DNA of 32,473 nucleotides from Candidatus Nomurabacteria bacterium RIFCSPLOWO2_01_FULL_41_12 (GCA_001787035.1 MFUY01000011.1:1-32473); one strand, 5' to 3'. Positions 24,511 through 32,473 are shown, counted from the first letter of the stretch. Notes: generated by a model from the sequence alone, not told the origin. Made by a program: numbers and translations.

Positions 24511-24591
24511 AATATATTTTCTTTAATTTTATAAACAAAAAGAGCCCCGCTAGCACAGGACTCATACGTAGTGTATAGTATCACAAGGTTT

Positions 24592-26001
24592 ATGGAAACG
24601 CAATACTTGCGAAAAATTTGGGAAACAAATACCCATTCATTCTTAGTTCTGCTCGTTGTGTCGGGGTGTATTTTTTATTATGGCTATTTTACAAATCCTA
24701 TGGTTAAAAATGGAATGATCACAGTTATTATAAATGACAAAGGATTTTCTCCAGAAAAAATTATTGTTCCTCAAGGTACAACAGTGAAGTGGGTTAATCA
24801 AGATGAGCGTCCACATTGGCCGGCTTCCAATTTCCATCCGACTCATAGTCTCTACCCGGAGCAGGGCGGCTGTATTGGAAGTCTGTTTGATGCTTGCCGG
24901 AGTCTTAAAGAGGGAGAATATTACTCTTTCAAATTTGACATTGCCGGTATTTGGCCAGTGCATGATCACCTTTCTCCGGGGATGATTATGGTGATAGAGG
25001 TTGTTGACCCCGTTAAAAGTGCTCGCGACGGAGTCGCGAGTTTAAAAGACCGCAGCGCGGCTACTTCTAACGGGGTAACTGCTGCTGAATTCCGCCAGCT
25101 TGATTATGGCAAACAAATGGAAATCATTAAATCCATGGCAACTAGTAATCCGAATAAAGCATGGGGTTATCTCAAGAATAGCTACATAGTTGACGGCCAG
25201 GTAGTCGGCAATGCCCATGAGTTTGCCCACATTGTCGGTAATCTTGCATTTGAAAAATTCAGCTTGGATGGGATAAAAGTTTGCGACGCAACATTTGCTT
25301 TTGGCTGTTTTCATGGAGTTACGGAAAAGATGCTTTTAAGTGAAGGCCTGGGGGTTATTAAGTCTATAGAAAATGGATGTTTAGAAATTTTCCCGCCGGA
25401 TAAATCGCAGGATTATACCAGCTGTATTCACGGGACGGGCCATGGGGTGTATAGTTTTGAAGGAGGGGACATGAAGGAGGCTCTTATTGATTGTGATATT
25501 ATCAGCGAACCCTACAGGCAGTATTGCTATGACGGGGTATTTATGGAACGTTCTTCCCAGCCGGATGCTAAAATATTTGACAATAAAAATCCATGGAAAT
25601 TTTGTACCGATCTTCCCGAGCGTTATCATCGCAATTGCGCCAGATATCAGAGCCAGATTTTCTTAGGCGCATTTGGCTCGCTGGGTTCCGTCAAAGCAGT
25701 CGGCAAAAATTGCGCTCTCGGATCGTCAGTATTGCTGCGAGAAACATGCTATGAAAGTCTTGGTTATTATATAGCTCAGCAATCTCTTGGAAAAATGTCA
25801 GAAATTTTAGAAAGTTGTAAACAAATGCCCAATACCGACGGACAGTCAGAGGGGGGAGAGATATGCATGATGGGTGGAGCAATTGAAAGTGTTTTTCAGA
25901 AATATCTTGATTTTCGGGACACTTCCTATAGGCTATGTAATAGCTTAACCGAGCTAAGGCGAGTATTATGTTTTAACAATATAGAAAGGATGCTTAAATG
26001 A
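24592..26001 (+). CDS. Membrane-anchored protein with a cupredoxin-like domain and one Cys/His-rich module (paralogue P1)
   Basis: TM helix, then a beta-rich segment ITVIINDKGFSPEKIIVPQGTTVKWVNQDERPHW...WPVHDHLSPGMIMVIEV. The module has HEFAH, CFHG, CIHGTGHG and CYDGVFME. The start is either ATG 24592 or GTG 24571. Confidence 0.65.
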   Translation: METQYLRKIWETNTHSFLVLLVVSGCIFYYGYFTNPMVKNGMITVIINDKGFSPEKIIVPQGTTVKWVNQDERPHWPASNFHPTHSLYPEQGGCIGSLFDACRSLKEGEYYSFKFDIAGIWPVHDHLSPGMIMVIEVVDPVKSARDGVASLKDRSAATSNGVTAAEFRQLDYGKQMEIIKSMATSNPNKAWGYLKNSYIVDGQVVGNAHEFAHIVGNLAFEKFSLDGIKVCDATFAFGCFHGVTEKMLLSEGLGVIKSIENGCLEIFPPDKSQDYTSCIHGTGHGVYSFEGGDMKEALIDCDIISEPYRQYCYDGVFMERSSQPDAKIFDNKNPWKFCTDLPERYHRNCARYQSQIFLGAFGSLGSVKAVGKNCALGSSVLLRETCYESLGYYIAQQSLGKMSEILESCKQMPNTDGQSEGGEICMMGGAIESVFQKYLDFRDTSYRLCNSLTELRRVLCFNNIERMLK

Positions 26002-28259
26002 AAAATAAAATTTTACAACTGATCAAGATTTTTGCCATTGTGTTTTTGATATTTTTATTTTCAAATCTAAATTTTTTCTTTGGTTCGCGCCCGGCGTGGA
26101 AAGATAATCCAGGATTGATTATGGCCAGAAATATTCATGATTACTGCCTAAAGAACGCAAGTCTTTCTAAAGGCAAAGACAATTGTTATGCGGAGGAATT
26201 TAAAAAGCTCGGTGAGCAAAATGGGGACGTTTTTAGTTTTAAAGTTTTAGATAGTCTGCAGAGAATTGACCCAGATGCTATTGGTTGCCATTTGATTGCC
26301 CATGGTATTGGCACAGGTTCATATAAAAGAGAACCGGAAAATTGGCGCATCTTGGTACAGAACATAAACAGCAGCTGCAGTTATGGAGCTCCTCATGGAG
26401 TTTTGGAAAGTTATGTTCTTACTTTACCAGAGAAAAGCCTGAGCAAAGATGTAATTCCTACTATCTGCGGCGAGGCTCCACGGGCTGACTGCAACCATAT
26501 CATCGGACATTTGCTTTTAGTCCAAACTGACGCTGACGTAAGTAAAGCCTTAAATTTATGCGAGGTATTTACCGACCCACGGCAGAATAATTTTTGCATA
26601 TCAGGAGTATTTATGGAGTATCAAACTGCGCTTAATTTAGTCGCGCATGATTTGGTTCCAAAGTCTTGGCTCAATTGGCCACCCAGACTAGGAGAATTAG
26701 AAAAATTATGCCGTTCTTATAGCGGCAAGTATGCCGAAGGATGCTGGGAGGAGATAGTTCATGTAGCGTTGGTAAAGTTTAACAACGATGCAAAGACGAT
26801 TTTTGATTTTTGTAGTACAGCCCAAGTTCCCAACGGAGCGAAAAGATGTAAAAGGCATTCAATCGGGATTATCGGCGCGTCGCGGAATTTTAATCTTGCC
26901 AGCTTGAAATCAATCTGCAGTCTTCCACAAAAGAATGACCCTAGTTTTGAAGAAGAGTGTTATACAGCGCTGGTTTCAAGCGCGCTTTCTACCATACCTT
27001 CCATTGTTCCCGAAGCAACTTCATTTTGCCAGAGTTTAGAAAAACAATTTCAGTCTTCTTGTCTTTCCATGGTTGACGCTATATCAGGTAAGGTTTATGT
27101 TAAAGGTTCCGGTAAAATTATAGCTCTTCAGGCTACGCAAGATAAGGATAAAATAGTGAAATTTTCTCCCGATGAATTTAAAATTTTATGGCCGAAAGCC
27201 TTATTTAAAATAGGCTCACAGAAAGACAATACTTTAAATAGCGAAATTGTGAGTATTAAAACTGTGCGAAACATAGATGAACAAGTTAAATTATATACAA
27301 AATTGATTGAAAGAGTGGGGCCAGAGCAGGCCCAAGAAGACCTTTTGCGTTCCGGATTACCTTTTGACGGGCAAACGCATCTTCTCAACCATACAGTGGG
27401 AGATTATTTATATTTAAAATACGGCGTAGCTGGGCTCTCACAATGTAAAGACTACTTTCTGTCTTCCTGTTACCATGGTTTTATCTTGCACGCGATAGCG
27501 GACGGTGGCATGAATAAAGTAGCTGAAGTTTTCGCTTCTTGTTATAAAGAAGGCTCGACCGTTTATATCCAATGCACTCACGCCATCGGCCACGGCTTTT
27601 TAGCGAATGCGGGTTATAAAAATTTAACGCAAGCCTTAAAAATTTGTGATGAAGCAATCAGTACCATACCGAACTTCCCGGCTTTTAATTGTTATGACGG
27701 AGTATTTATGGAAAATATTTGGGCAGTGCACGATGGCAAGCCTTCCCCAGACCGATGGATCAAGGAAGATGACATGGAGTACCCTTGTAATGACAAGCGG
27801 ATAGATGCTAAATATCTATTTGGCTGTTGGTCTAACCAGCCTTCTTTGGTCTTTCAGCTCTCCGGAGGTGATATCAAAAAAGTAGCAGATGTTTGTAGTA
27901 AAATAAAAAATTCTGGCTATCAAGAAACATGTTTCAATGGTCTTGCCAGACAAATCCATCCATTGACCAGCGGGGAAGTTGGAAAAACATTTGAACTGTG
28001 TGGCTTGATGCCTAGTTTGAAGTGGAATAATTATTGTGTATTTGTTAATGCCACCTCCAGTTATTCAGTGGGGGACAGAACTACCCCATTTGCAATGTGT
28101 GCCAACATCAATGGAAATGAGAAACAGGATTGTTATAATCAACTGTTTTCCATTATGCGGAGTTATGCCAAGCCCGGGGAAGACATAAAAAAATTATGCT
28201 CAAAAGTTTTCGAAATAGAGTGGCGTAAAAAATGCGAGTTGAGCCAGATATCCGGCTAA
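25998..28259 (+). CDS. Membrane-anchored protein with two Cys/His-rich modules (paralogue P2)
   Basis: 753 aa; its ATG overlaps the P1 stop (ATGA). Module 1 has HLIAHGIG, CNHIIGH and CISGVFME. Module 2 has HLLNHTVG, CYHG, CTHAIGHG and CYDGVFME. Confidence 0.7.
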   Translation: MKNKILQLIKIFAIVFLIFLFSNLNFFFGSRPAWKDNPGLIMARNIHDYCLKNASLSKGKDNCYAEEFKKLGEQNGDVFSFKVLDSLQRIDPDAIGCHLIAHGIGTGSYKREPENWRILVQNINSSCSYGAPHGVLESYVLTLPEKSLSKDVIPTICGEAPRADCNHIIGHLLLVQTDADVSKALNLCEVFTDPRQNNFCISGVFMEYQTALNLVAHDLVPKSWLNWPPRLGELEKLCRSYSGKYAEGCWEEIVHVALVKFNNDAKTIFDFCSTAQVPNGAKRCKRHSIGIIGASRNFNLASLKSICSLPQKNDPSFEEECYTALVSSALSTIPSIVPEATSFCQSLEKQFQSSCLSMVDAISGKVYVKGSGKIIALQATQDKDKIVKFSPDEFKILWPKALFKIGSQKDNTLNSEIVSIKTVRNIDEQVKLYTKLIERVGPEQAQEDLLRSGLPFDGQTHLLNHTVGDYLYLKYGVAGLSQCKDYFLSSCYHGFILHAIADGGMNKVAEVFASCYKEGSTVYIQCTHAIGHGFLANAGYKNLTQALKICDEAISTIPNFPAFNCYDGVFMENIWAVHDGKPSPDRWIKEDDMEYPCNDKRIDAKYLFGCWSNQPSLVFQLSGGDIKKVADVCSKIKNSGYQETCFNGLARQIHPLTSGEVGKTFELCGLMPSLKWNNYCVFVNATSSYSVGDRTTPFAMCANINGNEKQDCYNQLFSIMRSYAKPGEDIKKLCSKVFEIEWRKKCELSQISG

Positions 28260-28335
28260 AATTCTGGCGCCTTCGCCCTCGGAGACAAAGGACAGGGAAC
28301 CCACGACGCTGAGAATTTCACCGGATATCTGGCTC
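28241..28335. repeat. ~25-bp inverted repeat whose left arm is the last codons of P2
   Basis: GAGCCAGATATCCGGCTAAAATTCT (28241-28265) pairs with GAGAATTTCACCGGATATCTGGCTC (28311-28335). Fifteen bp are perfect and 7 more pair. It encloses a GC-rich spacer of about 45 nt. Confidence 0.6.
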
Positions 28336-28343
28336 TAAATTAT

Positions 28344-28459
28344 AAAATTCTTGAAACATAATTTTTCGCAGGGTTTTGAGCGCGACGGCGCGAGAACTTC
28401 AGGATTTTTTAAGCTTCAAAAAATCCGTACCAAAGAGAAATTGATGTTTTTAGAATTTT
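28344..28459 (+). repeat. Nested palindromic intergenic element, copy D
   Basis: The core at 28370-28431 matches copy A at 60 of 62 positions. Copy-specific imperfect arms are 28344-28367 and 28435-28459. It lies between convergent genes. Confidence 0.85.
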
Positions 28460-28460
28460 G

Positions 28461-28961
28461 TTATTCCTCGGCTACTGGCACGATCTGCCACTTACCTCCA
28501 CCCAAGCCGTTGCCATTTACGTCGCCGGGAATTTTGTCTCCTATGTAATAATACACCGGCTGTATGCCATAAGCATATTGGCGCGTTCCATCGCTCCTTT
28601 TAGCGGCGTTTAACTTTTTATCCAGAGGATTGGTCATAGTTGCAAAGTTTTGCGTAGTGTCCCACATAAATGGAGGCCAATTTTTTACACAATCCCCGGC
28701 ACAAGTACTCTTGAGCCTTTCATCATCTTTAAATGCATAGAGTGTCATCCCTTCTGAGTCTGTCAGATATACTCCAAGTTTTTCACTTTTTACATAACCG
28801 ACAACCTTACCAGCCACTAAATTAAGACCAGGCACCTCATCTTCGTCTATGGTCGCACTACCCCCATTTTGTACTCTCGGTGTTTTGTTTAAGAAAAATA
28901 TTAATCCCCCAATTAACACTAAAACTATTACAAACGCACTAATTATATTTTTATTTTCCAT
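28461..28961 (-). CDS. Secreted or membrane-anchored COG4315 / Lipoprotein_15-repeat protein
   Basis: TM helix, then LTDSEGMTLYAFKDD...CAGDCVKNWPPF and GIQPVYYYIGDKIPGDVNGNG..GKW. The ATG at 28961 is preferred over 29030, which would overlap the divergent promoter. Confidence 0.65.
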   Translation of the reverse strand: MENKNIISAFVIVLVLIGGLIFFLNKTPRVQNGGSATIDEDEVPGLNLVAGKVVGYVKSEKLGVYLTDSEGMTLYAFKDDERLKSTCAGDCVKNWPPFMWDTTQNFATMTNPLDKKLNAAKRSDGTRQYAYGIQPVYYYIGDKIPGDVNGNGLGGGKWQIVPVAEE

Positions 28962-29023
28962 ACCTATATAATAACGCTTTTTTGATTTTTTGCAGACATA
29001 ACACTGTGGATAACTCCCCTTGA

Positions 29024-29052
29024 TTGACAAATAGGTTTTTTAAGAGTATAAT
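29024..29052 (+). promoter_or_regulatory. Perfect consensus sigma-70 promoter
   Basis: TTGACA (29024-29029), a 17-nt spacer, then TATAAT (29047-29052). GGAGG at 29104-29108 lies 6 nt before the ATG at 29115. Confidence 0.55.
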
Positions 29053-29114
29053 GGCGATTGAGAAGGGGCGTTCTGTCCCTCGCTCATCGTCAATAGAAGA
29101 ATTGGAGGTGACCC

Positions 29115-30329
29115 ATGGGTCGCTACAGCTGGCTTTTCGTCGTCGTGCTGGCGACCGTGTTGGTCGCCGCTTGCAGTGAGCCTTACAAGCCCACTGCGCC
29201 GTCGTCGCCCTCTTCGTCTCTCACGTCAGGCGTTTGGTTTGCGCCTGGTACGTCGGAAATGGCGTCGGTGCACGATGTGGAACCGGAACCGGCACCCTTG
29301 CCGACCCCGGAACCGGAACCGGCACCCTTGCCGGCACCGGAGCCGACCGTCGTGCATCCTGGCACCGTCACGGACGTCGCTGGCAAGCCCATCGGGGGTG
29401 TCAAGGTGATGTTCCTTGACGGACTCAACGTTGGCAAGTTCACGTTTACGAATGCCGACGGTGACTATGTTGGCGCGTATGCGTTTACCGATGCGTTGGT
29501 CGGAAACGCGAACCTATCAGCCACGAAGGTTGGGTACGCAGAGCAGATCCTTGGCATCTACGTTGACGGCATCAACACGCTTGATTTCGTGCTGAGCGCT
29601 ATGTCGACACAGTCCCCGAGGGCTGTGGACGACAACTACACCGTCCAGCTCGGCACGGTTCTGAATGTTCCGGCCCCTGGAGTCCTGGCGAACGACTCTA
29701 TTCCGGCGGGAATGACGGTTACGGCATCATTCCCGCCACCGAGGCCACCAGGGACCTTGACCAACACTGGGGGTGGGGGGTTTACGTATAACCCCATCGT
29801 TGACCCTCAGAACCCGCCTGTCGTGCGGTTTCAATACCTGATCCAAACAGCGGCTGGAGCAATCAATGGAGCAACCGTGACGGTTAACTTCGTTGTTGAT
29901 CCTACAAAGCCAACCATCAGCATCAGGGAGGTGCTGCCGGCGAGCCCTGCGGGGCCGCTGCCACGTGGGAACTTGAGCACGGTTCGAGTTCTTCTGCATT
30001 TCGAGCAAAACAACTGGGCCGGGACGGACAGGATGACCGCTTGGCTCTGCGGGGCTGATGATCGTCCGAGTATGATCATCCGGACCAGTTGTCAGGCGAA
30101 CAGCGTGAGCAGGCAGTCGCCGGACTTGTACCTCAACCCCACGCTGGGGCTCCGGGGCCCGTCTGACTGCGGAATCGTCAAGGTCACGCGGCTCGTGGCG
30201 TTCCTCACGCCGACGAACGAGACGCCACATGTGCCCTCGCCTACGGATCCTTACAAGTCTGAGGTGGGGATCACTATGTGGGCTCGCGCTGAGCGAGCCG
30301 TCGACTGGACCTATCAGCCGTGCAATTAG
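29115..30329 (+). CDS. High-GC lipoprotein with PEPEPAPLP repeats, a CarboxypepD_reg-like segment and an adhesin-type Ig/cadherin-like motif
   Basis: Lipobox LVAAC. GTVTDVAGKPIGGVKVMF...NADGDY and VDDNYTVQLGTVLNVPAPGVLANDS are present. Third codon positions are GC-rich, unlike every neighbouring gene. Confidence 0.75.
   Translation: MGRYSWLFVVVLATVLVAACSEPYKPTAPSSPSSSLTSGVWFAPGTSEMASVHDVEPEPAPLPTPEPEPAPLPAPEPTVVHPGTVTDVAGKPIGGVKVMFLDGLNVGKFTFTNADGDYVGAYAFTDALVGNANLSATKVGYAEQILGIYVDGINTLDFVLSAMSTQSPRAVDDNYTVQLGTVLNVPAPGVLANDSIPAGMTVTASFPPPRPPGTLTNTGGGGFTYNPIVDPQNPPVVRFQYLIQTAAGAINGATVTVNFVVDPTKPTISIREVLPASPAGPLPRGNLSTVRVLLHFEQNNWAGTDRMTAWLCGADDRPSMIIRTSCQANSVSRQSPDLYLNPTLGLRGPSDCGIVKVTRLVAFLTPTNETPHVPSPTDPYKSEVGITMWARAERAVDWTYQPCN
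29280..29339 (+). repeat. 30-bp tandem duplication inside the high-GC gene
   Basis: GAACCGGAACCGGCACCCTTGCCGACCCCG and GAACCGGAACCGGCACCCTTGCCGGCACCG match at 28 of 30 positions. They encode EPEPAPLPTP and EPEPAPLPAP. Confidence 0.85.
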
Positions 30330-30359
30330 GCTGACAGGTAGTTAGACGGGAGAAAACAA

Positions 30360-30385
30360 GGGCCGGGGCGCGAGCGCCCCGGCCC
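30360..30385 (+). terminator. GC-only hairpin after the high-GC gene, with no U-tract
   Basis: GGGCCGGGGCG-CGAG-CGCCCCGGCCC forms an 11-bp stem with a tetraloop. It is followed by GAGGAGG rather than a T run. Confidence 0.4.
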
Positions 30386-30488
30386 GAGGAGGCAATGTGA
30401 ATATCAAAGATAATATCAAAACGTCGTTAAGACCCTTAGGGAGCACTGGCGGCTTTTTAATTTCAATAAAGTATTGTACTATCAATTT

Positions 30489-32473
30489 GTGAGTAATAAA
30501 CTTAAAAATATCGTTTCTAATCAAAAGGACTTATTTTTGTTTTTCGGGATAATCCTAATTTTGGGCATTTTTTTGTTTCAAGATAGTCCAAAAAATAAAT
30601 TTACTGTGCGTAACAGTTATCCTGAACTTTCATTTTTACAAGGCAAGAATTTTAATTTTGCCGAAAACTCAAAGTTTTTTGCGAAGTTGGCTCAAGACCA
30701 AGGCGGAGAGTATGCTTATAAGGCATTAGCATATGCGACAACGCGTTCCATTTTCCCTGCAAATATTGACACTCATTTATTAGGCCATGTGGTTGGGGAT
30801 GAATTATTTAAACAAAAAGGTCTTTTCGGTATGCAATTTTGCACTGATGACCTGCGCAATGCCTGCTCTCATTCTATTGTGGTTGGCGGGCTTCTGGCTG
30901 AAGGGATAGACGCGATAAATAAAATGGTGGGAGTTTGTAAGGGAGCACCCGGTGGTAAAGGAGCGTATCGTATGTGTGTGCATGGCTTGGGCCATGGTGT
31001 TTTGGCTTTTACCGACTACGATATGCGTAAAGCCGTTGATCTTTGCAAGCCTATCGCTACCACTTCGGAATATTCTAATATGGAGTTCGTGGAGTGCATC
31101 GGTGGTATTACTATGGAGATGATGGCTGGGGTGAATGATAAGCAGGCTTGGGAAAAACAAAAAGTTAACTATTTCAAATCTAATGACCCATTAGCCCCCT
31201 GCAATTTAGGTTTTATCCCGGAAAAAGCGGTCCATATCTGTTACACTTTTTTAACACCCCATTTATTTGAAAGCGCCGGGATAAATCCAGGAGCGCCCCC
31301 CCTTCCTATGCATCTTAAAAAAGCTTTTACTTTTTGTGAAAAAATTCCTGAAAATGAAGGTCGCAATCGGGAATCCTGCTTTGGTGGTTTTGGCAAGGAA
31401 TTCGTGGTGCTGGCAAATGAACGCAATGTGCAGAGCGTGGAGAATATGGATAGTGGAAAATTGGCTAAAATTGACGAGTGGTGTAATCTGGCTATAGATG
31501 AGGGTATAAAGCCGTGCCTTTATTCAGCGCTCCAGTCTTTATTTTGGGGCGGGGAAAATAAAAGGGATGTGGCTATTAGATTTTGCTCTATTATGGAGGA
31601 TAAACAAAAACAAACTTTCTGTTTTGAGAATTTAATTGGGGCAGTGTCTTATTATATTGTTGATGCTAAATATCGCGCGGAATTTTGTTCAGAAATCCCG
31701 GAAGGCTATCGCACAGAATGTAAATCAAAACTGGAGTTGAAAGAGCCGGCAAGATTAATTTCAAATAAAGTGTTTTTTGACTTTAATAAAATTAGAGTGA
31801 CTGAAAATGAGAAATATCAAAGATACGCCGATCAGATTTTAAAATTGTGTGGTGATAAAAATTACCGACCCGCTTGTTATGATGAAGAAATCCCTAAATT
31901 GATGGATTCTATCTCAATGGAAGATGCGTTTAAAGTTACCAAATTGGTGCAAAAGCAGGATTCGGAATATCTTTATTGCCATGTTTTAGCCCATAACTTA
32001 AGTGCCCAGGAAGTGGCTAAAAATCCCGATAATTGGAAAGATGTGGTGATTAGGTGTCCTTCAGGCACGTGTTCAAACGGCTGTATTCACGGTGGATTCC
32101 AAGAACGTTTTCGGGCTGAATCATTTTCAGCAGAGCAGATTGAGGTCCTAGTTCCAGATTTAAAAATATTATGCGAACCAAGAGGCTTATGGAAGCCGAC
32201 AGGGCTTGAACAAGGGTCTTGCTATCACGCTTTAGGGCATTTGACTATGTATTTAACCGCGGCCGATATTGATACATCGCTCAAGCTTTGTGATAGAGTG
32301 GCTCTACCGTTTTTACAGCTTTGTTATGATGGGGCTTTTATGCAGATTTCCCAGCCACTAGAACCTGAGGATTTTGCTTTGATTGCCGGAAAAGAAGTGA
32401 AAAAAGAAAAATTGAAAGATTTTTGTTCAAATTTCAAAGGGAAACAGAAAAGTTCCTGCTGGAGCGAGGGCTG
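30489..32473 (+). CDS. Membrane-anchored protein with two Cys/His-rich modules (paralogue P3); the 3' end lies outside the window
   Basis: It is absent from the ORF track because it has no stop in the window. The frame is open from 30414. A GTG at 30489 gives VSNKLKNIVSNQKDLFLFFGIILILGIFLF, a TM helix. Motifs are HLLGHVVG, CSHS, CVHGLGHG, ECIGGITME, then HVLAH, CIHGG, CYHALGH and CYDGAFMQ. Confidence 0.65.
   Translation, partial: MSNKLKNIVSNQKDLFLFFGIILILGIFLFQDSPKNKFTVRNSYPELSFLQGKNFNFAENSKFFAKLAQDQGGEYAYKALAYATTRSIFPANIDTHLLGHVVGDELFKQKGLFGMQFCTDDLRNACSHSIVVGGLLAEGIDAINKMVGVCKGAPGGKGAYRMCVHGLGHGVLAFTDYDMRKAVDLCKPIATTSEYSNMEFVECIGGITMEMMAGVNDKQAWEKQKVNYFKSNDPLAPCNLGFIPEKAVHICYTFLTPHLFESAGINPGAPPLPMHLKKAFTFCEKIPENEGRNRESCFGGFGKEFVVLANERNVQSVENMDSGKLAKIDEWCNLAIDEGIKPCLYSALQSLFWGGENKRDVAIRFCSIMEDKQKQTFCFENLIGAVSYYIVDAKYRAEFCSEIPEGYRTECKSKLELKEPARLISNKVFFDFNKIRVTENEKYQRYADQILKLCGDKNYRPACYDEEIPKLMDSISMEDAFKVTKLVQKQDSEYLYCHVLAHNLSAQEVAKNPDNWKDVVIRCPSGTCSNGCIHGGFQERFRAESFSAEQIEVLVPDLKILCEPRGLWKPTGLEQGSCYHALGHLTMYLTAADIDTSLKLCDRVALPFLQLCYDGAFMQISQPLEPEDFALIAGKEVKKEKLKDFCSNFKGKQKSSCWSEG

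What the first reader, a model, noticed from the sequence alone, without database searches (positions are those of the whole stretch)
24571..32473. Cluster of three membrane-anchored paralogues carrying five copies of a novel Cys/His-rich module
P1 (24592-26001) has one module, P2 (25998-28259) has two, and P3 (30489 to beyond 32473) has two. Each protein starts with a single TM helix, so the modules are predicted to be extracytoplasmic. Each module repeats the same ordered motifs. These are H-x3-H-x2-G (HEFAHIVG, HLIAHGIG, HLLNHTVG, HLLGHVVG, HVLAHNLS), then C-x-H-G, then C-x-H-x2-G-H (CIHGTGHG, CTHAIGHG, CVHGLGHG, CYHALGH, CNHIIGH), then C-Y-D-G-x-F-M-E and further spaced Cys pairs. P1 adds a cupredoxin-like domain, its module has a literal HExxH, and P1 and P2 are coupled through an ATGA overlap. 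A COG4315/Lipoprotein_15 gene lies inside the cluster. I do not recognise the module as a named family. The dense His and Cys ligands, the cupredoxin partner and the extracytoplasmic location suggest metal (Cu or Zn) binding or redox chemistry at the cell surface. That is hypothesis only.
Basis: partly seen in the sequence, partly recalled or inferred. Interest (0 to 1): 0.8.

Follow-up and report, generated by a model that had tools for sequence, protein, structure and literature searches.

The report
Unnamed disulfide-stapled His-cluster surface repeat family
Three neighbouring membrane-anchored surface proteins of a Saccharibacteria-like bacterium carry five copies of a large, unnamed helical-repeat domain; its cysteines look like structural disulfides, and an invariant histidine/methionine/glutamate patch, often fused to a copper-protein-like domain, suggests an unstudied metal-binding system in ultra-small symbiotic microbes.

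Summary
P1, P2 and P3 carry one, two and two copies of a ~300-aa module (pairwise E 1e-14 to 1e-27). Each protein has an N-terminal anchor. P1 and P2 overlap in ATGA, and a Lipoprotein_15 gene lies between P2 and P3.

The module matches nothing in Pfam, NCBIfam or PDB sequences. It is nevertheless a large family: 6,576 clusters at 50% identity, mostly from Patescibacteria and DPANN archaea.

AlphaFold models (pLDDT 85-88) show an all-alpha repeat solenoid, and Foldseek finds only generic HEAT/ARM similarity. The cysteines behave as one disulfide per helical hairpin, because optional ones appear and vanish strictly in pairs. They are therefore unlikely to be metal ligands.

What stays invariant across 250 modules is H209, H213, H241, H280, H284, M318 and E319, which I infer lie on four adjacent helices. 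The HExxH in P1 is not conserved.

P1's N-terminal domain is a true cupredoxin fold that lacks the type-1 Cys ligand. It carries a His-rich WPAS-HPxH-HDH motif instead.

My best reading is an extracytoplasmic metal site, probably copper, working with the cupredoxin-like domain. This is inferred, not shown.

The parts
24592..26001 (+). P1 gene (469 aa): N-terminal anchor, cupredoxin-like domain, one type-A module
   Evidence: ORF. ATG at 24592 has AAGG 7 nt upstream. AlphaFold pLDDT 85.5, pTM 0.80.
24640..24693 (+). P1 membrane anchor (aa 17-34)
   Evidence: Best 18-residue hydropathy window scores 1.84, with 2 K/R before it. Modelled as a helix.
24709..25005 (+). P1 cupredoxin-like domain (aa 40-138). 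It has H75, WPAS, H82-P-T-H85, a C94/C102 pair, D100 and H124-D125-H126, and no type-1 Cys ligand.
   Evidence: Foldseek hits 5fc9 purple cupredoxin at E 4.6e-5 with target TM 0.78, plus plastocyanin and amicyanin. The family profile hits amicyanin at 1e-7 and NirK at 3e-8, with the amicyanin Cys ligand aligned to D125. Conservation measured over 61 domains.
25081..25998 (+). P1 module, type A (aa 164-469): H209, H213, H241, H280, H284, M318, E319 and seven Cys pairs
   Evidence: HMM domain E 1e-123. All-alpha in the AlphaFold model. Motif positions.
25998..28259 (+). P2 gene (753 aa): anchor plus type-C module plus type-B module. Its start overlaps the P1 stop in ATGA.
   Evidence: AlphaFold pLDDT 87.8 with two folded modules.
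26112..27101 (+). P2 first module, type C (aa 39-368): H98, H102, H133, H167, H171, M206, E207. It has the alternative disulfide C97-C127.
   Evidence: HMM E 2.6e-104. The Cys at the positions of C97 and C127 are present together in 46 modules and never singly.
27093..27230 (+). Disordered linker between the two modules of P2 (aa 366-411)
   Evidence: pLDDT below 50 across 366-411.
27252..28256 (+). P2 second module, type B (aa 419-753): H461, H465, H493, H528, H532, M571, E572 and eight Cys pairs
   Evidence: HMM E 2.6e-128. Type B is 50-58% identical to DPANN archaeal copies.
28461..29030 (-). Lipoprotein_15 / COG4315 gene, convergent with P2. The likely true start is the ATG at 28961, which gives an N-terminal anchor.
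   Evidence: Pfam PF03640 E 1.9e-22. A homologue sits directly after the type-B gene in 8 loci.
30489..32473 (+). P3 gene (661 aa or more, cut by the window end): anchor plus divergent B-like module plus C-like module
   Evidence: The start codon is uncertain: GTG at 30489 or TTG at 30474.
30639..31658 (+). P3 first module (aa 51-390): H96, H100, H128, H165, H169, M209, E210
   Evidence: HMM E 1.1e-124. No relative at 45% identity or more among the fetched modules.
31803..32473 (+). P3 second module (aa 439-661), truncated at profile position 192 of 305: H498, H502, H534, H580, H584, M618, and Q619 in place of Glu
   Evidence: HMM E 6e-69. Motifs.

Best explanation
The three genes encode membrane-anchored, extracytoplasmic proteins. 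They are built from an unnamed ~300-aa domain, which is a solenoid of seven to eight helix-loop-helix repeats. In each repeat a disulfide joins the end of the first helix to the start of the second.

On the first four 'second' helices of each module sits a fixed patch of two HxxxH pairs, a fifth His, a Met and a Glu. In P1 numbering these are H209/H213, H241, H280/H284, M318 and E319. I propose that this patch binds one or two metal ions, most likely copper. I also propose that it works together with the His-rich, non-blue cupredoxin-like domain that is fused to type-A modules, either relaying the metal or passing electrons at the cell surface.

The three module types A, C and B appear to act as one unit. 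They are usually three adjacent genes, and different lineages have fused different pairs of them.

Shown: the family, its repeat fold, the paired-Cys behaviour, the invariance of the His/Met/Glu set, the cupredoxin fold, and the synteny.
Inferred: the disulfides, the spatial clustering of the invariant residues, and metal binding.
Speculative: copper as the metal, and a redox role.
For: Family and fold:
- 6,576 clusters at 50% identity match the module profile at E<=1e-3, and 1,444 match at <=1e-30. Proteins carry 1-10 modules.
- AlphaFold models are all-alpha with pLDDT 85.5 and 87.8.
- hhalign of sub-blocks of the module against each other gives 96-97% probability, E 1e-9 to 3e-11, so the module is an internal repeat.
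- Foldseek finds only HEAT/ARM solenoids.

Disulfides:
- Six Cys pairs are present in 250 of 250 modules.
- Optional pairs co-occur: 215 both against 1 single; 46 against 0; 141 against 14. Lost pairs are replaced by hydrophobic pairs.
- DsbA-like genes are neighbours in three loci.

The invariant patch:
- H209 and H213 are present in 250/250 modules, H241 in 243/250, H280 in 249/250, H284 in 250/250, M318 in 248/250 and E319 in 241/250.
- The equivalent positions in later repeats are variable, so this is a local site and not a feature of the repeat.
- Type-C modules carry a disulfide between the residue just before the first His and the segment just before the third His (46 both, 0 single).
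- The top coupling in direct-coupling analysis is A212-G238, score 2.85 against 1.34 for the next pair. Together these place the HxxxH helix against the H241 helix.

Link to copper:
- The cupredoxin-like domain occurs in 58 of 188 family proteins.
- P0079 independently has two C-terminal cupredoxin domains that pass Pfam cut-offs.
- 28 of 56 cupredoxin-bearing relatives have [A/G/S]-His directly after the signal-peptide core, which predicts a mature N-terminal His. Only 7 of 117 relatives without that domain do.
- An invariant Met beside the His set fits known copper-ligand preferences (established knowledge).

A, C and B as one unit:
- The tandem A, C, B gene triad is seen in many loci. C+B is fused in this window, A+B in DPANN, and A+C in P0005.
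Against: - No metal, redox or binding measurement exists for any member.
Their clustering rests on repeat register, one facultative disulfide and one strong coupling.
- The DSSP string for P1 shows residues 209-230 as one long helix. If that helix is straight, H209 and H213 would lie far from H241.
- The cupredoxin-like domain lacks the type-1 Cys, so copper is not implied by homology.
- Patescibacteria and DPANN mostly lack electron-transport chains (PMC7507113), so an electron-transfer role has no obvious partner.
- M318 lies in a hydrophobic stretch (GVFME) and could simply be a core residue.
- No copper-homeostasis genes were seen near any locus.
- Arrays of up to nine paralogues look more like a surface-interaction family than a metal-handling one.
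Confidence: 0.45

Rival explanations
1. The modules are surface-interaction or structural proteins of the episymbiont, such as adhesins or scaffolds that contact the host envelope. The disulfide-stapled solenoid gives a rigid binding surface. The invariant His/Met/Glu patch is a ligand-binding or fold-stabilising feature, not a functional metal centre.
For: - The alpha-solenoid fold is typical of binding scaffolds.
- Paralogues form large tandem arrays, nine genes each in L041 and L042.
- Neighbours include type IV pilus genes: PilB and PilC in 5 loci and PilM in 4.
- Neighbours also include large surface proteins with CWB2, PKD, Big or DUF5667 domains.
- The family is concentrated in host-dependent CPR and DPANN lineages.
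Against: - Binding surfaces of paralogue arrays normally diversify. Here seven residues are fixed in about 97-100% of 250 modules, while the rest of the same helix face varies.
- Repeated fusion to a cupredoxin-like domain is not explained.
Confidence: 0.25
2. The module is a metal-dependent enzyme, a hydrolase or an oxidase/monooxygenase, that acts on host or environmental substrates. The His/Glu/Met patch is its catalytic centre and the cupredoxin-like domain supplies electrons. One version of this reading is two copper sites, one with three His and one with two His plus Met.
For: - Near-absolute invariance of seven residues is typical of a catalytic site.
- Type-B modules are 50-58% identical between bacteria and archaea, which suggests strong constraint.
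- The ligand count (H209/H213/H241, and H280/H284/M318) matches the His3 plus His2Met pattern of non-coupled binuclear copper monooxygenases. This is my own knowledge and was not tested.
- Cupredoxin fusions recur.
Against: - No similarity to any enzyme family by sequence or fold.
- The HExxH Glu is not conserved.
- Solenoids are rarely enzymes.
- No reductant or substrate pathway appears in the neighbourhoods.
- The geometry of the patch is unknown.
Confidence: 0.15
3. The system scavenges or stores a metal other than copper, such as iron, zinc or nickel. It would be analogous to EfeO, which pairs a cupredoxin-like domain with an alpha-helical metal-binding domain. The COG4315 lipoprotein would be a partner.
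For: - The architecture is extracytoplasmic cupredoxin-like domain plus helical domain.
- Both domains are rich in His, Asp and Glu.
- The type-1 Cys is absent.
- Synteny with the COG4315 gene is conserved in 8 loci.
- The comparison with EfeO is from my own knowledge.
Against: - No Pfam Peptidase_M75 or EfeO match at E<=1.
- No transporter genes are conserved beside the cluster.
- The invariant Met and the predicted N-terminal His of relatives point to copper rather than iron or zinc.
Confidence: 0.15

Closest known systems
Helicobacter cysteine-rich proteins (Hcp; Sel1-like repeat proteins)
   Same: Secreted alpha/alpha-hairpin repeat solenoids in which each repeat is stapled by one disulfide between its two helices. 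This comparison is from my own knowledge.
   Different: - No Sel1 or any other Pfam repeat match at E<=1.
- The Cys-Cys spacing is 6-29 residues, mostly 10-14, rather than a short fixed spacing.
- The module has a fixed length of about 300 aa with an invariant His/Met/Glu patch on its first four repeats.
- Fusions to a cupredoxin-like domain recur.
HEAT/ARM-repeat solenoids (karyopherin beta2, PP2A A subunit, CAND1)
   Same: These are the best structural matches of the P2 model, at Foldseek E 2e-4 to 1e-2. They share the fold class of stacked helical hairpins.
   Different: TM-scores are only 0.1-0.2 with rmsd near 30 Å and about 10% identity, so the resemblance is generic. Those proteins are cytosolic, have no disulfides and have no conserved His cluster.
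Type-1 blue copper proteins (amicyanin, plastocyanin, purple cupredoxin 5fc9)
   Same: The P1 N-terminal domain has the same beta-sandwich fold (target TM 0.72-0.80). It is detectably homologous by profile (E 1e-7). H75 aligns with the N-terminal His ligand.
   Different: The Cys ligand is replaced by the invariant D125. The downstream His and Met ligand positions are not conserved. A different invariant set, H82, H85, D100, H124 and H126, is present instead.
EfeO (cupredoxin-like domain plus helical M75 metal-binding domain)
   Same: An extracytoplasmic protein that pairs a non-classical cupredoxin-like domain with an all-alpha metal-binding domain. This is from my own knowledge.
   Different: There is no Peptidase_M75 match. 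The helical part here is a disulfide-stapled repeat. No EfeU/EfeB-like partner genes were seen.
Histidine-brace copper proteins (CopC, LPMO and similar)
   Same: Half of the cupredoxin-bearing relatives are predicted to mature with an N-terminal His. An N-terminal His is the hallmark of a histidine brace (my own knowledge).
   Different: The window's P1 has an uncleaved anchor and no N-terminal His. No sequence or fold similarity to those families was found.

Membership tests
Cupredoxin fold (Pfam PF13473 / PF00127) | Greek-key beta-sandwich detectably related to plastocyanin or amicyanin | tested here: met
   Foldseek E 4.6e-5 to 1e-3 with target TM up to 0.80. The family profile hits amicyanin at 1e-7 and NirK at 3e-8. 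P1 alone is below the Pfam cut-off (23.1 against 27 bits).
Type-1 (blue) copper centre | The ligand set His, Cys, His and Met at the northern loops | tested here: not met
   In the alignment to amicyanin, the Cys ligand falls on the invariant D125 and the His and Met ligand positions are variable. None of 120 stand-alone relatives has C-x2-H-x(2-5)-M.
Zincin metalloproteases | HExxH with a conserved catalytic Glu | tested here: not met
   The residue after the first His is Glu in only 48 of 250 modules. Leu is the commonest residue there. No peptidase family hit.
Sel1-like repeat / Hcp cysteine-rich proteins | Match to the Sel1 repeat profile with a short, regular Cys spacing | tested here: not met
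   No Pfam hit of any kind to P2 or P3 at E<=1. Cys spacing within pairs is 6-29 residues.
HEAT/ARM repeat proteins | Specific structural or sequence relationship to a HEAT or ARM family | tested here: inconclusive
   Only generic fold-class matches, with TM 0.1-0.2. No Pfam HEAT or ARM hits.
EfeO / Peptidase_M75 (imelysin-like) | Match to the M75 helical domain | tested here: not met
   No Pfam match at E<=1 and no PDB sequence match to the module profile at E<=10.
Type-3 copper (tyrosinase/hemocyanin) or PHM-like binuclear copper | Six His in a four-helix bundle, or His3 plus His2Met sites about 11 Å apart | not testable with these tools
   There are no sequence or fold matches.
Lipoprotein_15 / COG4315 (the neighbouring gene) | Two PF03640 repeats above the Pfam cut-off | tested here: met
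   E 1.9e-22, 78.9 bits against a cut-off of 24.4, over two stretches. The NCBIfam SCO0930-family hit is partial and below its cut-off.

The most novel reading that the evidence does not exclude
The module is a previously unrecognised class of extracytoplasmic copper protein. It would hold a binuclear site, or two sites (three His, and two His plus Met/Glu), displayed on a disulfide-stapled alpha-solenoid. Together with a Cys-less, His-rich cupredoxin domain it would form a surface copper redox or relay system. That system would be specific to, and shared across domains by, CPR bacteria and DPANN archaea, organisms that largely lack respiratory chains.
Probability: 0.2. Interest if true: 0.85.

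Novelty: new variant of a known kind. Interest (0 to 1): 0.65.

Why it matters
CPR bacteria and DPANN archaea make up a large share of microbial diversity, and most of their surface proteins have no assigned function. This family has thousands of sequence clusters and no name in Pfam or NCBIfam. Its conserved residues make a clear, testable prediction: a fixed His/Met/Glu site on a disulfide-stapled scaffold, repeatedly joined to an unusual cupredoxin.

If the site binds copper, it would add a new structural class of copper protein. It would also raise the question of what surface copper chemistry does in organisms without respiratory chains. Possible answers include metal theft from hosts, defence against oxidants, and attack on the host envelope.

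Even if the function is only structural, defining the domain would annotate thousands of 'hypothetical proteins'. It would also correct 'plastocyanin' labels given to Cys-less cupredoxins.

Tried and rejected
- Named-family assignment. Pfam and NCBIfam scans of P1, P2 and P3 gave nothing for the module. A PDB sequence-profile search gave no hit at E<=10.
- Specific structural relatives. Foldseek with P1 found only cupredoxins for the beta domain. With P2 it found only generic HEAT/ARM solenoids. I had considered an alpha/alpha toroid such as LanC because of the 'CHG'-like motifs. Nothing supports it.
- Zincin reading of HEFAH. Rejected, because the Glu is not conserved.
- A 26-locus 'conserved neighbour' cluster. 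It was mostly an artefact of low-complexity YPTPS-type repeats. After masking, the real DUF5667-type N-terminal domain is found upstream only in three distinct archaeal genomes (L001, L003, L018), with a weak match in L024.
- A 16-locus ORF cluster. It was made of antisense ORFs inside the module genes.
- Non-CPR members. The Methylocystis rosea copy and soil contigs have uninformative neighbourhoods, and all are annotated 'hypothetical'.
- The search for related loci with the five-module alignment failed because no stretch was conserved enough. A type-B alignment was used instead, so the taxon list is not a census.
- Literature. There were no hits for DUF5667, COG4315 or Saccharibacteria+cupredoxin. 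The PF03640 hits were irrelevant. Several searches timed out.
- Distances between the invariant residues could not be measured, because model coordinates are not returned. Direct-coupling analysis was used as a partial substitute.


Full report
**What is in the window**

The region 24.5-32.5 kb holds five genes.
- P1 runs from 24592 to 26001 (+, 469 aa).
- P2 runs from 25998 to 28259 (+, 753 aa).
- A small gene lies at 28461-29030 on the minus strand.
- A GC-rich gene lies at 29115-30329 (+).
- P3 starts at 30489 and runs off the window end (+, 661 aa or more).

The P1 stop and the P2 start share ATGA at 25998-26001. Upstream are housekeeping genes: NusA, an H+-pyrophosphatase, trigger factor, ClpP and RNase Y. 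The closest related locus, L005, is a Saccharibacteria genome bin. It has the same gene order and a type-B module 75% identical to the one here. The window therefore comes from a Saccharibacteria-like member of the Patescibacteria.

**Checking the observation**

Blastp between the three proteins gives 23-27% identity over 220-366 residues, with E 1e-14 to 1e-27. A profile of the five putative modules finds exactly one in P1, two in P2 and two in P3, the last cut by the window end. Two details differ. The 'C-x-H-G' motif is irregular, and the last module has Q where the others have the Glu of G-x-F-M-E.

Each protein begins with a hydrophobic stretch of about 18 residues with K/R on its N-terminal side. 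AlphaFold models those stretches as helices in P1 and P2. This orientation puts the rest of each protein outside the cell. The minus-strand gene is a Lipoprotein_15 / COG4315 protein (E 1.9e-22).

**The module is a large, unnamed family**

Pfam and NCBIfam give no hit to the module at E<=1. A PDB sequence-profile search gives none at E<=10. Yet a profile search of 1.84 billion representative proteins finds 6,576 clusters at E<=1e-3 and 1,444 at E<=1e-30. Proteins carry one to ten modules. Nearly all start with a signal peptide or a single anchor. Every source name seen is 'hypothetical protein'.

A scan of species-representative genomes, using type-B patterns only, returned 42 loci:
- Many Patescibacteria lineages: Saccharibacteria, Paceibacterota, Doudna-, Davies-, Kaiser-, Zambryski- and Nomurabacteria.
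- Several DPANN archaea, including a closed Aenigmatarchaeota chromosome.
- A few bins labelled as other phyla.
- One cultured organism, Methylocystis rosea SV97.

**Fold**

AlphaFold models are confident. P1 has pLDDT 85.5 and pTM 0.80. P2 has pLDDT 87.8. P1 consists of an anchor helix, a beta domain at aa 42-138 and an all-alpha module. P2 consists of two all-alpha modules joined by a disordered linker at aa 366-411.

Foldseek against the PDB matches the P1 beta domain to cupredoxins and finds nothing significant for the helical part. With P2 it finds only generic HEAT/ARM solenoids, with TM-scores of 0.1-0.2.

Comparing sub-blocks of a 250-module alignment with hhalign gives 96-97% probability (E 1e-9 to 3e-11) between successive two-hairpin blocks. 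The module is therefore a tandem repeat of helical hairpins.

**The cysteines**

In 250 modules from about 190 proteins, six Cys pairs are present in every sequence. Each pair joins the end of one helix to the start of the next.

Three further pairs are optional, and their cysteines come and go together:
- 231/239: both present in 215 modules, one alone in 1, neither in 34.
- 208/235: both present in 46, one alone in 0.
- A C-terminal pair: both present in 141, one alone in 14.

Where the 231/239 pair is absent, it is replaced by hydrophobic pairs such as I/A, L/A and V/A. DsbA-like thioredoxin genes lie in three related loci, directly upstream of the module genes in two of them. Given the extracytoplasmic location, the simplest reading is one structural disulfide per hairpin.

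**The invariant patch**

The residues that are truly fixed are:

| Residue (P1 numbering) | Modules with it, of 250 |
|---|---|
| H209 | 250 |
| H213 | 250 |
| H241 | 243 |
| H280 | 249 |
| H284 | 250 |
| M318 | 248 |
| E319 | 241 |

G283 and G315 are also fixed.

Take the second Cys of each pair as the register. Then H241, H280 and D314 sit at position +2, and E245, H284 and M318 sit at position +6, on successive 'second' helices. The same positions in later repeats are variable. The conservation therefore marks a local site and is not a property of the repeat.

Two independent signals place the first HxxxH helix against the H241 helix:
- Type-C modules, which include P2a and P3b in this window, carry a disulfide from the residue just before the first His to the segment just before the third His.
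- The strongest direct coupling in the alignment is A212-G238, at 2.85 against 1.34 for the next pair. The substitutions are size-compensating: A/G, G/A, N/S and S/G.

I infer that the seven residues form one contiguous patch on four adjacent, parallel helices. I could not measure this, because model coordinates are not returned. There is also a caveat. The DSSP string for P1 shows residues 209-230 as a single helix, whereas the type-C model breaks the equivalent segment in two.

The literal HExxH of P1 is not meaningful, because Glu occupies that position in only 48 of 250 modules.

**The cupredoxin-like domain**

This domain occurs in 58 of 188 family proteins. A profile of it hits amicyanin (1e-7), a NirK cupredoxin domain (3e-8) and plastocyanins. 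In that alignment, the type-1 Cys ligand corresponds to the invariant D125, which is flanked by the invariant H124 and H126. The downstream His and Met ligand positions are not conserved. H82, H85 and D100 are about 98% conserved, and H75, which matches the N-terminal His ligand, is 77% conserved.

The same WPAS-HPxH-HDH domain exists as at least 1,240 stand-alone small anchored proteins in DPANN and Patescibacteria. They are often auto-annotated 'plastocyanin', and none of the 120 inspected has a C-x2-H-x(2-5)-M ligand motif.

One relative, P0079, has two such domains at its C-terminus that pass Pfam cut-offs. This is an independent fusion.

Among cupredoxin-bearing relatives, 28 of 56 have [A/G/S]-His right after the signal-peptide core. 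Among relatives without that domain, only 7 of 117 do. This predicts a mature N-terminal His, the hallmark of histidine-brace copper sites (my own knowledge). The window's P1 lacks this feature.

**Gene neighbourhood**

Across 46 related loci, module genes are usually clustered. The commonest arrangement is three tandem genes: cupredoxin plus type A, then type C, then type B.
- This window fuses C and B into P2.
- DPANN archaea fuse cupredoxin plus A with B.
- P0005 fuses A with C.

Such alternative fusions suggest that the three types act together. The COG4315 gene sits immediately after the type-B gene in eight loci, convergent with it in seven, including this window. Type IV pilus genes are nearby in nine loci. 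Large surface proteins flank the archaeal copies. No transporter or copper-homeostasis genes are conserved nearby.

**Interpretation**

The best-supported statement is structural. This is an extracytoplasmic, disulfide-stapled alpha-solenoid domain with a fixed His5/Met/Glu patch, functionally tied to a Cys-less, His-rich cupredoxin domain.

I think metal binding at the patch is the most likely function. Copper is the most likely metal, for three reasons: the cupredoxin partner, the invariant Met, and the predicted N-terminal His of relatives. This is inference only.

Several rival readings are not excluded:
- a surface-interaction scaffold;
- a metal-dependent enzyme;
- scavenging of a different metal, in an arrangement like EfeO.

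Patescibacteria and DPANN mostly lack respiratory chains (PMC7507113). Classical electron transfer to a respiratory chain is therefore an unlikely role for the cupredoxin domain.

**Novelty**

The fold class (helical repeat) and the principle of one disulfide per hairpin (as in Helicobacter Hcp proteins) are both known. The family itself, its invariant patch and its coupling to an unusual cupredoxin have no described counterpart that I could find. I rate it a new variant of a known kind. There is a minority chance (about 0.2) that it is a new class of copper protein.

Noticed in passing
window 29024-30385: The gene at 29115-30329 (404 aa) has a lipoprotein-like N-terminus, a Pro-rich linker, and CarboxypepD_reg and Big_9 domains. 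Its GC content is 0.606 in a window averaging 0.418. A perfect TTGACA-17-TATAAT promoter match lies upstream at 29024-29052. An 11-bp all-GC hairpin follows at 30360-30385. This may be a gene acquired from a high-GC organism.
   Followed up: partly
L005 8296-9855: The syntenic Saccharibacteria locus has a different 520-aa surface-type gene (TIG plus CarboxypepD_reg) at the same position after the COG4315 gene. Its GC is also about 0.60, against 0.44 for the locus. It is only 44% identical to the window gene over 89 aa. The same spot therefore holds a high-GC single-gene island in two genomes.
   Followed up: partly
relatives P0009-P0028, P0057-P0086 and others (N-termini): Half of the cupredoxin-bearing family members (28 of 56) have [A/G/S]-His directly after the signal-peptide core, often as AHGEGG or AHGDGG. 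Only 7 of 117 members without that domain do. This suggests a conserved mature N-terminal His.
   Followed up: partly
proteins P0301-P0420: At least 1,240 stand-alone small anchored proteins in DPANN and Patescibacteria carry the WPAS-HPxH-HDH cupredoxin-like domain. Many are labelled 'plastocyanin' or 'copper-binding', yet none of the 120 inspected has a C-x2-H-x(2-5)-M ligand motif. These labels are probably wrong.
   Followed up: partly
L041 1-9258; L042 710-12132: A Kaiserbacteria locus and a UBA2163 locus each carry nine consecutive single-module paralogues on one strand.
   Followed up: no
L013, L014, L016, L018, L021, L022 (archaeal) compared with window 27252-28256: Type-B modules of DPANN archaea are 51-58% identical to the alignment of bacterial type-B modules headed by the window's P2b. 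This points to transfer between CPR bacteria and DPANN archaea, or to very strong constraint.
   Followed up: no
L040 5995-7266 (Methylocystis rosea SV97): This is the only cultured-organism copy found. It has no signal peptide at the annotated start. It has a His-rich insertion (HGHDHGH) after the GVFME motif and a C-terminal TPYPTPYE repeat tail. Its neighbours are uninformative.
   Followed up: partly
L001 5092-7968; L003 4609-7962; L018 2-4441: In archaeal loci the family gene directly follows a protein of 958-1,480 aa with a DUF5667 N-terminal region and long YPTPSY-type low-complexity repeats.
   Followed up: partly
L011 3021-3731; L012 2040-2774; L008 8366-8686: DsbA-like thioredoxin genes lie beside the module gene clusters in three loci. 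This is consistent with a need for disulfide formation.
   Followed up: no
L005, L027, L030, L034, L035 (PilB/PilC); L025, L026, L028, L029 (PilM): Type IV pilus assembly genes lie within a few kb of the module genes in nine loci. Whether this reflects function or only conserved CPR gene order is unknown.
   Followed up: no
window 32322-32345 (P3 aa 612-619): The last module of P3 reads CYDGAFMQ. It has Gln in place of the otherwise 96%-conserved Glu.
   Followed up: no
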